A DNA stretch of 50,647 nt from Candidatus Paceibacter sp. (GTDB lineage Bacteria; Patescibacteriota; Minisyncoccia; UBA9983): positions 1 to 50,647 of the forward strand of contig JABWAS010000001.1 of assembly GCA_013360865.1 (NCBI GenBank), in the 5' to 3' direction. The notes under the pieces were generated by a model. It did no database searches and had not been told where the DNA came from. It saw only the letters and a program-made list of their open reading frames with translations. Of this stretch, positions 24,516-24,664 are shown piece after piece (positions within the stretch are counted from its first letter, which is position 1; each line of letters begins with the position of its first letter). Both the position numbers and the translations under genes were made by a program.

Positions 24516-24628
24516 TCGGGGCGCCGAGAGTCGAACTCGGCCCACCTAAATTTATTATGTAAATTTCCACGGAAGCATACTATGCTTCCGGGCAAAACCT
24601 CTGTCGGGCCGCCGAGATTTGAACTCGG
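24516..24628 (-). other. two orphan tRNA 3'-half-like segments separated by a 9-bp hairpin
   Basis: On the minus strand, 24628-24604 reads CCGAG-TTCAAAT-CTCGG-CGGCCCG-A and 24540-24516 reads CCGAG-TTCGACT-CTCGG-CGCCCCG-A. Each is a T arm plus 3' acceptor strand plus discriminator. I found no matching 5' acceptor strand, D arm or anticodon arm. The hairpin is at 24570-24590. Confidence 0.4.
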
Positions 24629-24664
24629 ACTAAATGCTCCCCCGCCTGCCATCGCCTTAATTTT

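What the first reader, a model, noticed from the sequence alone, without database searches (positions are those of the whole stretch)
24516..24664. Two orphan tRNA 3'-halves (T arm + acceptor strand + discriminator) with no 5' halves, beside tRNA-Pro
Downstream of tRNA-Pro on the minus strand lie two segments that look like the last ~25 nt of genuine tRNAs. These are CCGAG-TTCAAAT-CTCGG-CGGCCCG-A and CCGAG-TTCGACT-CTCGG-CGCCCCG-A. I cannot find complementary 5' acceptor strands (CGGGCCG or CGGGGCG), D arms or convincing anticodon arms within reach. A 9-bp hairpin with a 3-nt loop separates them. Neither segment matches the 3' half of the three intact tRNAs in the window. Possible explanations are decayed tRNA genes, att-site scars left by integrases that target tRNA 3' ends, or non-canonical (split, permuted or intron-containing) tRNA genes. 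The last option would be remarkable in Bacteria.
Basis: seen in the sequence. Interest (0 to 1): 0.6.

Follow-up and report, generated by a model that had tools for sequence, protein, structure and literature searches.

The report
Leftover ends of replaced proline tRNAs
The two tRNA "tails" are the surviving 3' ends of older proline-tRNA genes at this spot, most likely split and replaced in turn by a small hairpin-bounded insert carrying a fresh proline tRNA; they are a worn-down example of a "tRNA inside tRNA" insertion that is common in ultra-small (CPR) bacteria and that I could not find described.

Summary
After tRNA-Pro(UGG) (24735-24665, minus strand) lie two T-arm + acceptor-strand + discriminator segments, ending at 24604 and 24516. 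No tRNA finder completes them, and the assembled genome holds no matching 5' half.

They are not split or permuted tRNAs. Both are proline-type 3' ends, and each nearly equals the living tRNA-Pro(UGG) at this same syntenic site in sister genera. The intact tRNA-Pro sits on an 11-bp stalk formed by two complementary arms (24757-24747 and 24656-24642).

Deleting the arm-bounded 116-nt element joins an 8-nt upstream remnant to orphan 1. The join recreates the loop TTTGGGA of a tRNA-Pro(UGG). A sludge metagenome contig carries that uninterrupted gene, and its similarity to the window breaks exactly at the element edge.

The same element, with both host halves present, splits a tRNA-Pro on contig C16. 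In relatives it splits Pro, Cys, Thr, Gly and Arg tRNA genes, and the cargo always has the host's identity.

Best reading (about 0.7): the orphans are relic shells of serial replacement by a tRNA-carrying insertion cassette, and the 5' shells have been deleted. Orphan 2 could instead be a decayed neighbouring gene.

This scan has already noted the same "Russian-doll" design on other CPR DNA. I found no paper on it.

The parts
24665..24735 (-). Intact tRNA-Pro(UGG), the cargo of the insert and the only uninterrupted UGG proline tRNA gene found in the genome
   Evidence: ARAGORN; Rfam 61.9 bits. It is 90% identical to the tRNA-Pro(UGG) of G019, a different family.
24747..24757 (-). 5' arm of the insert (outer 7 nt GCCTGCC plus inner CGCC)
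   Evidence: Complementary to the 3' arm. The MFE fold pairs the two arms around the tRNA cloverleaf, z -3.3. The same arms flank tRNAs on C16 and in relatives.
24642..24656 (-). 3' arm of the insert (GGCG, AT bulge, GGCAGGC, GG); the element spans 24757-24642, 116 nt
   Evidence: Removing exactly this span (outer arm to outer arm plus two G) restores canonical tRNAs in five relatives.
24758..24765 (-). 8-nt remnant of the host's 5' part (end of the anticodon stem plus TTT of the loop)
   Evidence: It abuts the 5' arm. Joined to 24641 it gives the loop TTTGGGA and a 3-bp stem remnant, TGC with GCA. It differs at two bases from the uninterrupted allele. The tRNA-Pro of same-genus G001 has the same stem 5' strand, CCTGC.
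24604..24641 (-). Orphan 1: 3' shell (tRNA positions 35-73) of the previous resident tRNA-Pro(UGG)
   Evidence: It matches the residents of G017 and G009 at the syntenic site at 33/36. An uninterrupted allele in a metagenome contig diverges from the window exactly at 24641|24642.
24570..24590 (-). 9-bp hairpin with a 3-nt loop between the orphans; unique sequence, role unknown
   Evidence: BLAST finds no other copy in the genome or in the loci fetched by then (L009-L027, L148-L165).
24548..24566 (-). 7-bp AT-rich hairpin with a 5-nt loop; role unknown
   Evidence: Read from the sequence.
24516..24540 (-). Orphan 2: T arm, acceptor 3' strand and discriminator of a still older tRNA-Pro gene, either an outer shell or a former neighbour
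   Evidence: It matches the resident tRNA-Pro(UGG) of G006 at the syntenic site at 24/25.
24783..24788 (-). TATAGT, a likely -10 box that would drive the whole unit (inferred)
   Evidence: A TATAGT also stands upstream of the tRNA-Pro of G019, and a GAAACA leader motif is shared with relatives. The consensus promoter scan did not call it.

Best explanation
The two orphans are dead remnants, not genes. This site, downstream of a UPF0102/YraN-like gene, holds the resident tRNA-Pro(UGG) throughout the family. In this lineage a 116-nt DNA element entered the resident gene between positions 34 and 35 of the anticodon loop. The element is two complementary arms enclosing a complete tRNA-Pro(UGG). 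The insertion broke the old gene, and the cargo tRNA took over its job. RNase P and RNase Z would cut the cargo out of the stalk like any tRNA (inferred). The old gene's 5' part (positions 1 to about 26) was later deleted, which left the promoter close to the new tRNA. Its 3' part survives as orphan 1. Orphan 2 is the 3' end of an even older tRNA-Pro. Most likely it is the outer shell of an earlier round of the same process; less likely it is a neighbouring tandem tRNA-Pro that lost its front. Shown here: the identity of the pieces, the exact element borders, the empty-site allele and the recurrence elsewhere. Inferred: the way the element moves. Candidates are homing or recombination with a filled allele, possibly started by the small GIY-YIG nucleases that sit in sister cassettes of this genome. 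The order of events is also inferred.
For: (1) Both orphans are proline-type and nearly equal living residents of the same syntenic site in sister genera: orphan 1 matches G017 and G009 at 33/36, and orphan 2 matches G006 at 24/25. The present tRNA is instead closest to one from another family, at 90%. (2) Arms at 24757-24747 and 24656-24642 pair around the intact tRNA. Removing 24757-24642 joins ...TGC TTT to GGGA GCA..., the normal tRNA-Pro(UGG) loop. (3) Empty site: one contig of run X13 matches 24601-24641 with 2 mismatches. Exactly at 24641|24642 it continues into a normal tRNA-Pro D arm and anticodon stem, not into the arm. (4) On contig C16 of the same genome, the same arms and a tRNA-Pro(GGG) sit inside a tRNA-Pro that keeps both halves. 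Splicing it in silico gives a tRNA-Pro(UGG) by ARAGORN. (5) In 401 genomes of the class, the arm pattern hit 12 genomes and the reversed control hit none. Ten of its 18 matches, in nine of these genomes, enclose a tRNA or a decayed tRNA-like copy (G325) lying within a host tRNA of the same identity or its remains (Pro, Cys, Thr, Gly, Arg). Removing the element to the base restores canonical tRNAs in five of them. G250 shows three successive 5' halves and decayed 3' halves, that is, several nested levels. (6) tRNA-Cys is uninterrupted in nearly all of 60 relatives and split only sporadically, with 3'-only relics in others. This fits repeated gain followed by shell decay. (7) This genome holds about 15 further tRNA fragments within 160 nt of an intact tRNA, mostly of the same type. 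It also holds three small GIY-YIG genes directly upstream of tRNA genes; at two of them (tRNA-Arg on C10, tRNA-Phe on C41) broken host pieces were seen.
Against: The 5' evidence in the window is only 8 nt, two of which differ from the empty-site allele. The empty-site allele rests on one low-depth (2.9) 196-nt contig. No 5' shell or outer arm exists for orphan 2, so its nested origin is inferred from position and analogy only. No transposase, nuclease or recombinase is associated with this copy, and no near-identical copy of this very cassette was found elsewhere, so mobility of this copy is not shown. In G078 the arms are inverted relative to both tRNAs, so arms and cargo are not a rigid unit. 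Several hosts in relatives are perfectly intact, with compensatory changes between genomes, which could also mean that they still function.
Confidence: 0.7

Rival explanations
1. Decayed tandem array. The site once held two or three adjacent tRNA-Pro genes, and plain deletions removed the fronts of the downstream ones. No insertion was involved.
For: Relatives have a second tRNA-Pro just downstream of tRNA-Pro(UGG): G006 at 13 nt, G004 at 8 nt, G014 at about 540 nt. Orphan 2 has no junction evidence of its own and matches CGG- and UGG-type tRNA-Pro genes equally, at 23/25.
Against: This does not explain the arms on both sides of the intact tRNA. It does not explain the host remnant upstream of the 5' arm, the exact loop restoration, or the empty-site contig that breaks at 24641|24642. 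It also does not explain the same architecture with complete host halves on C16 and in relatives. It remains a fair option for orphan 2 alone.
Confidence: 0.13
2. Integrase att scars. Successive integrative elements entered the 3' part of tRNA-Pro, each displacing the previous 3' end. The element bodies were later deleted.
For: An intact tRNA followed by a row of 3' fragments with no 5' fragments is the classic look of repeated integration at a tRNA. A tyrosine recombinase gene lies in the window at 29438-30505.
Against: The recombinase is Xer-like, 4.7 kb away, and separated from the locus by housekeeping genes. Only 23 and 63 nt separate the pieces. The fragments share no identical core with the intact tRNA's 3' end (about 19/25 for orphan 1, counted by eye). 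Their acceptor strands pair poorly with its 5' strand (5/7 and 6/7). The model predicts nothing upstream of the tRNA, yet an arm and a host remnant are there.
Confidence: 0.07
3. RNA-level intron or split tRNA. The arm-bounded insert is removed from the transcript and the host halves are joined, so interrupted hosts are working genes. The orphans would be 3' halves awaiting a partner.
For: Five hosts in relatives are restored to perfect cloverleaves by removing the element to the base. Host tRNA-Cys in G011 and G158, and host tRNA-Pro on C16 and in G007, differ by compensatory pairs. RtcB ligase is encoded in this 848-kb genome.
Against: No 5' half for either orphan exists in the assembly. No splicing endonuclease or Rnl2-type ligase was found. 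No bulge-helix-bulge can be drawn. The insertion position varies (33/34, 34/35, 36/37, 38/39, D loop). The cargo always duplicates the host's identity, so the host is dispensable. Interrupted hosts are sporadic among relatives, and many are plainly broken: the window, the Trp host on C16, G250 and G325. The C16 host carries a further 16-17-nt palindrome at positions 25/26 and, relative to the G007 host, two extra T in the anticodon loop.
Confidence: 0.06
4. The 3' halves are kept because they do something as RNA, for instance as a tRNA-like processing or termination signal at the end of the tRNA-Pro transcript.
For: Both T-arm hairpins are still perfect. Orphan 2 is followed by a T-rich tract.
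Against: The terminator scan calls neither. Same-genus G001 has only one, visibly decayed, T-arm relic at this place. Similar relics elsewhere in the genome are of every length and state.
Confidence: 0.04

Closest known systems
Integrative elements that target tRNA genes and leave displaced tRNA 3' fragments (attL/attR; sublocation classes of Williams 2002, from my own knowledge)
   Same: An intact tRNA is accompanied by partial 3' copies of a tRNA of the same kind. The target lies in or near the anticodon loop. The tRNA function is preserved despite the insertion.
   Different: Here the function is preserved by a whole spare tRNA inside the insert, not by a matching 3' end. The insert is 116 nt with no recombinase. 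There is no identical core repeat. Host remnants lie on both sides.
Archaeal disrupted tRNA genes: bulge-helix-bulge introns at many positions, and split and tri-split tRNAs (reviews PMC4390854, PMC4033280; titles and abstracts seen, full texts not opened)
   Same: tRNA genes are interrupted in the anticodon loop, D loop or T loop. Helices are formed by the insert's ends. The introns behave like mobile elements.
   Different: No bulge-helix-bulge can be drawn and no splicing endonuclease gene was found. The organism is a bacterium. The insert holds a full tRNA. The hosts decay.
Group I introns in bacterial tRNA anticodon loops
   Same: The same sublocation in the gene (33/34 and 34/35).
   Different: No group I intron family was matched in the window. 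The insert is far too short and consists of a stalk plus a tRNA.
MITEs, mobile insertion cassettes and REP-like palindromes
   Same: A short non-autonomous unit bounded by inverted repeats that carries a passenger. An 18-nt palindrome built from the same outer-arm sequence has 11 copies in this genome.
   Different: The passenger is a tRNA of the same identity as the gene it splits. No target-site duplication was seen. Arms and cargo can have opposite relative orientation (G078).
Free-standing homing endonuclease cassettes in tRNA clusters (e.g. phage T4 SegB, from my own knowledge) and the GIY-YIG + spare tRNA cassettes noted earlier in this scan
   Same: Sister loci of this genome hold a small GIY-YIG gene directly upstream of an intact tRNA (C10, C14, C41). 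Broken host pieces and hairpins were seen at C10 and C41.
   Different: The window's copy has no nuclease gene. Any link between the nuclease and these arms is untested.

Membership tests
tRNA gene (Rfam RF00005 / ARAGORN cloverleaf) | Complete cloverleaf: paired acceptor stem, D arm, anticodon arm and T arm | tested here: not met
   Neither orphan is called. Orphan 1 aligns only to model positions 34-71, at 17.8 bits against the cut-off of 29. Orphan 2 matches only in its T arm.
Split tRNA (Nanoarchaeum type) | A separately encoded 5' half with a complementary acceptor strand and D arm | tested here: not met
   Searches allowing G-U pairs, and a Pro D-arm search with 2 mismatches over all 46 contigs, find none. 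The assembly is rated 100% complete by marker genes, but it is fragmented.
Circularly permuted tRNA | A 5' half lying downstream of the 3' half in the same transcript | tested here: not met
   The 63 nt after orphan 1 and the sequence after orphan 2 hold no acceptor 5' strand or D arm.
Archaeal/eukaryal protein-spliced tRNA intron | A bulge-helix-bulge motif at the exon-intron borders and a splicing endonuclease (PF01974) | tested here: not met
   PF01974 was not found in the genome. The borders abut a continuous helix with no 3-nt bulges (inspection).
Group I intron in tRNA | A group I ribozyme core | tested here: not met
   No Rfam intron family matched in the window or the locus. The insert is 116 nt.
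Integrase att-site scar | A direct repeat identical to the tRNA's 3' part, bounding an island that carries an integrase | tested here: not met
   About 19/25 identity to the intact tRNA's 3' end. Spacers are 23 and 63 nt. The only recombinase is Xer-like and 4.7 kb away.
Arm-bounded tRNA cassette nested in a cognate tRNA ('Russian-doll' design of CPR bacteria; not in the literature I searched) | Complementary arms directly flanking an intact tRNA | tested here: met
   The arms at 24757-24747 and 24656-24642 pair in the MFE fold. The same arms occur on C16, in G007 and in eight more loci.
Arm-bounded tRNA cassette nested in a cognate tRNA | Host pieces of the same amino-acid identity on both sides, restored to a normal anticodon loop when the element is removed | tested here: inconclusive
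   The 3' side is fully met (orphan 1, Pro, positions 35-73). On the 5' side only 8 nt remain. The loop restoration TTT+GGGA is met, and the empty-site contig agrees.
Arm-bounded tRNA cassette nested in a cognate tRNA | Evidence that the unit moves as DNA | tested here: inconclusive
   The distribution of split tRNA-Cys among 60 relatives is patchy, and an empty-site allele exists. No near-identical second copy of this cassette and no enzyme were found.

The most novel reading that the evidence does not exclude
The arm-bounded inserts are true bacterial tRNA introns. RNase P and RNase Z release the cargo tRNA, an unknown nuclease trims the stalk, and RtcB rejoins the host. One transcript would then yield two proline (or Cys, Thr, Gly) tRNAs. 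This would be a protein-dependent tRNA splicing pathway in Bacteria. The window's orphans would be what remains when that system fails.
Probability: 0.06. Interest if true: 0.9.

Novelty: new variant of a known kind. Interest (0 to 1): 0.55.

Why it matters
Taken alone, the two segments are junk. They are informative junk, because they record two earlier generations of the proline tRNA gene at one locus. The spot preserves traces of three successive tRNA-Pro genes, two as 3' ends and one intact, and each resembles the gene still living at that spot, or elsewhere, in a different relative.

Together with the complete nested copies on contig C16 and in relatives, the segments point to a class of small inserts that break an essential single-copy tRNA gene while bringing its replacement. 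That design would let a selfish element live in the most conserved genes of very small genomes. It also turns over tRNA genes horizontally.

There is a practical side. Standard tRNA finders miss the hosts and relics, so tRNA fragments like these will be misread as split tRNAs or att sites in CPR genomes.

Tried and rejected
1. ARAGORN with introns allowed found nothing at this locus.
2. Rfam in permissive mode gave only a mascRNA-like hit of 16 bits at E 1.5, which I take as chance.
3. Cloverleaves drawn by hand for each orphan with the upstream sequence failed: no acceptor 5' strand is present even with G-U pairs.
4. An anticodon-arm reading of the 9-bp hairpin was dropped. It would give anticodon AGU, and no other tRNA features are present.
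5. The tmRNA or two-piece tmRNA idea for orphan 2 (its T loop is tmRNA-like) was dropped. The acceptor has no G3:U70, and the real tmRNA lies on contig C46.
6. The whole-collection scan with a 14-mer from the 3' arm returned chance hits from unrelated phyla and spent the only genome-contig scan. Only one CPR hit, an empty hairpin, was usable.
7. BLAST of the 63-nt spacer between the orphans found no other copy.
8. Laying RNA-labelled runs: all were contigs, and most were probably DNA. They say nothing about transcription, ends or splicing.
9. My early idea that TATAGTG upstream is a decayed D arm was dropped. The same motif stands upstream of an ordinary tRNA-Pro in G019 and fits a -10 box.
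10. Three literature searches for tRNA introns or disrupted tRNAs in CPR/Patescibacteria found no description. One meeting report (PMC10714607) mentions only rRNA introns in CPR.

Full report
**What is there**

On the minus strand, tRNA-Pro(UGG) occupies 24735-24665. Two segments follow that have the last part of a tRNA and nothing else.
- Orphan 1: T arm 24628-24612, acceptor 3' strand 24611-24605, A at 24604.
- Orphan 2: T arm 24540-24524, acceptor strand 24523-24517, A at 24516.
- Between them lie a 9-bp hairpin (24590-24570) and a 7-bp AT-rich hairpin (24566-24548).

ARAGORN and Rfam call only three tRNAs in the window. ARAGORN's intron mode and Rfam's permissive mode add nothing credible. 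The window is contig C34 of an 848-kb, 46-contig genome of the CPR type, seen in activated-sludge and bioreactor metagenomes.

**Not chance, and proline-type**

A pattern for a Pro-type 3' end occurs six times in the genome: the three intact tRNA-Pro genes, these two segments and one odd tRNA. Both segments have C1:G72-type acceptor strands with discriminator A.

Against 112 tRNAs of this genome and relatives, their best matches are all tRNA-Pro. By BLAST, orphan 1 matches positions 34-72 of a tRNA-Pro(UGG) (39 nt, 95%, E 1e-11). Orphan 2 matches positions 49-72 (24 nt, 96%, E 4e-5). Cut at 24641, orphan 1 aligns to Rfam's tRNA model from position 34 to 71.

No acceptor 5' strand with a D arm that could complete either segment exists in the assembly. 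The split and permuted readings therefore fail.

**The key lead**

The motif just upstream of orphan 1 recurs once, on contig C16, downstream of tRNA-Pro(GGG). There the tRNA-Pro(GGG) is bracketed by the same two complementary arms as in the window: an outer 7 bp (GCCTGCC with GGCAGGC) and an inner 4 bp with a 2-3-nt bulge. Outside the arms lie both halves of another tRNA-Pro. Removing the arm-bounded insert, and a second short palindromic insert, gives a sequence that ARAGORN calls tRNA-Pro(UGG).

In the window the arms are at 24757-24747 and 24656-24642. The minimum-energy fold pairs them as a stalk under the tRNA-Pro cloverleaf (z -3.3).

**Exact borders in the window**

Deleting 24757-24642 (116 nt) joins ...TGC TTT (24763-24758) to GGGA GCA... 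(24641 onward). TTTGGGA is the anticodon loop of tRNA-Pro(UGG) in the relatives, and TGC pairs with GCA as the inner three pairs of the stem. The insert therefore sits between positions 34 and 35 of an older tRNA-Pro(UGG), whose positions 35-73 are orphan 1.

Independent support comes from a 196-nt contig of run X13. It matches 24601-24641 with two differences. Exactly at 24641|24642 it continues into a normal tRNA-Pro D arm and anticodon stem instead of the arm (tables 7 and 8). That is an empty-site allele in a low-abundance relative. It rests on one contig of depth 2.9, so I weigh it as moderate evidence.

**Synteny**

In the same family, the UPF0102/YraN-like gene (window 24825-25214) is followed by the resident tRNA-Pro(UGG).
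- The residents of G017 and G009 equal orphan 1 at 33/36.
- The resident of G006 equals orphan 2 at 24/25.
- The window's living tRNA-Pro is closest (90%) to that of G019, which belongs to another family.
- Same-genus G001 has the same gene order (YraN, tRNA-Pro(UGG), DUF5652). Its tRNA-Pro is a different one, on AT-rich arms, followed by a single, more decayed T-arm relic.

The locus thus preserves traces of three successive tRNA-Pro genes. The pieces lie in the order expected for nesting, with the youngest innermost and the oldest outermost and most eroded.

**Generality**

The arm pattern hit 12 of 401 genomes of the class, against none for the reversed control. Ten of the 18 matches, in nine of those genomes, enclose a tRNA or a decayed tRNA-like copy (G325). 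Each lies inside a host tRNA of the same identity, or inside what remains of one:
- Pro (this window, C16, G007)
- Cys (G011, G158, G325)
- Thr (G117, G250)
- Gly (G078)
- Arg (G255, in the D loop)

Removing the element from the outer arm through the outer arm plus two G restores canonical tRNAs in five hosts. In the element's own orientation, all junctions read T|G...G|G. In G078 the element is inverted relative to both tRNAs. G250 has three successive 5' halves and decayed 3' halves.

Other cassettes use other arm sequences but the same design: G004 and G024, G059, and the Trp host on C16.

In this genome, 21 tRNA-fragment clusters lie outside the called tRNAs. About 15 are within 160 nt of an intact tRNA, mostly of the same type. 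Small GIY-YIG genes stand directly upstream of tRNA-Arg(UCU), tRNA-Leu(CAA) and tRNA-Phe; broken host pieces and hairpins were seen at the Arg and Phe loci.

**Shell or intron?**

Intact hosts with compensatory differences between genomes could mean that hosts are still used. Examples are tRNA-Cys in G011 against G158, and tRNA-Pro on C16 against G007. RtcB is also present.

The evidence against is heavier:
- tRNA-Cys is uninterrupted in nearly all of 60 relatives and split only sporadically, with 3'-only relics in others. Independent recent gains explain the intact hosts.
- The cargo always duplicates the host's identity, so the host is dispensable.
- The insertion positions vary.
- No bulge-helix-bulge, splicing endonuclease or Rnl2-type ligase was found.
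- Many hosts are plainly broken.

For the window the question is moot, because the 5' halves are gone.

**Rivals**

*Att scars.* The only recombinase nearby is Xer-like and 4.7 kb away. The spacers are 23 and 63 nt. There is no identical core. The insert has an arm and a host remnant upstream of the tRNA, which that model does not predict.

*Decayed tandem array.* This cannot explain orphan 1's junctions. It stays open for orphan 2, because relatives do carry a second tRNA-Pro just downstream.

**Prior knowledge**

Three full-text searches found no paper on tRNA introns or nested tRNAs in CPR bacteria. Earlier notes of this scan describe the same design on other CPR DNA, and one nuclease cassette on this genome's contig C10. 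I reached the nesting independently before reading them. They prompted the GIY-YIG check.

**Verdict**

The orphans are relic 3' shells of replaced tRNA-Pro genes, with confidence about 0.7 for orphan 1's mechanism and less for orphan 2's origin. They are an ordinary object in themselves, produced by an apparently undescribed kind of tRNA-carrying insert.

Noticed in passing
G000 contig C16, 30269-30062 minus strand (L001:2063-2270): A tRNA-Pro gene with both halves present is interrupted twice. One interruption is a 16-17-nt palindrome at position 25/26. The other is a 117-119-nt arm-bounded insert (border ambiguous by 2 nt) holding tRNA-Pro(GGG). Spliced in silico it is a tRNA-Pro(UGG), but relative to the G007 host it has two extra T in the anticodon loop.
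   Followed up: yes
window 49616-49633, plus 10 more sites in the genome: An 18-nt perfect palindrome built from the outer-arm sequence (CTGCCTGCC joined to its complement) occurs 11 times in the genome and 0 times in the reversed control. Copies sit inside a dead tRNA-Ser-like D loop (C5) and inside the C16 host. It looks like a REP-like, insertion-prone repeat.
   Followed up: partly
G000 C23:16147-16094 minus strand (L004:595-648): A 54-nt tRNA-Arg(GCG)-like gene has an acceptor stem, D arm, anticodon arm and encoded CCA but no T arm. It scores 44 bits on Rfam tRNA, above the cut-off, and lies directly upstream of tRNA-Arg(CCG). ARAGORN misses it.
   Followed up: partly
G000 C46:35217-35569 (L204:118-470): The tmRNA gene is missed by ARAGORN and found by Rfam at 129.8 bits.
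   Followed up: yes
G000 C10:14642-14851, C14:18515-18715, C41:7970-8179: Small GIY-YIG nuclease genes (88-112 aa) stand directly upstream of tRNA-Arg(UCU), tRNA-Leu(CAA) and tRNA-Phe. Host tRNA pieces and GC-rich hairpins flank those on C10 and C41. A further GIY-YIG gene lies about 1.4 kb from tRNA-Ser(UGA) on C8.
   Followed up: partly
G000 C46:9232-9304: ARAGORN calls this tRNA Cys(ACA), but it has a Pro-like acceptor (C1:G72, A73) and no U33. Its identity is unclear.
   Followed up: no
G000 C46:31878-31953: A tRNA-Ile with a genomically encoded UAU anticodon and encoded CCA. No CAU-type tRNA-Ile2 was called.
   Followed up: no
G000 C35:43-152: A tRNA-like gene with good acceptor, D and T arms but an AT-rich middle of about 37 nt. 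ARAGORN calls it tRNA-Lys only in intron mode.
   Followed up: no
window 25740-27248 (+) and G000 C20:4603-5859: A CCA-adding enzyme gene lies next to the tRNA-Arg/tRNA-Pro cluster, and most tRNAs here lack an encoded CCA. An RtcB RNA ligase gene is kept in this 848-kb genome.
   Followed up: no
L151 (G250:C48), minus strand around locus positions 1180-1560: Three successive tRNA-Thr 5' halves, each ending in the anticodon loop, precede an arm-bounded tRNA-Thr(UGU). Decayed 3' halves follow it. This is the deepest nest seen here.
   Followed up: partly
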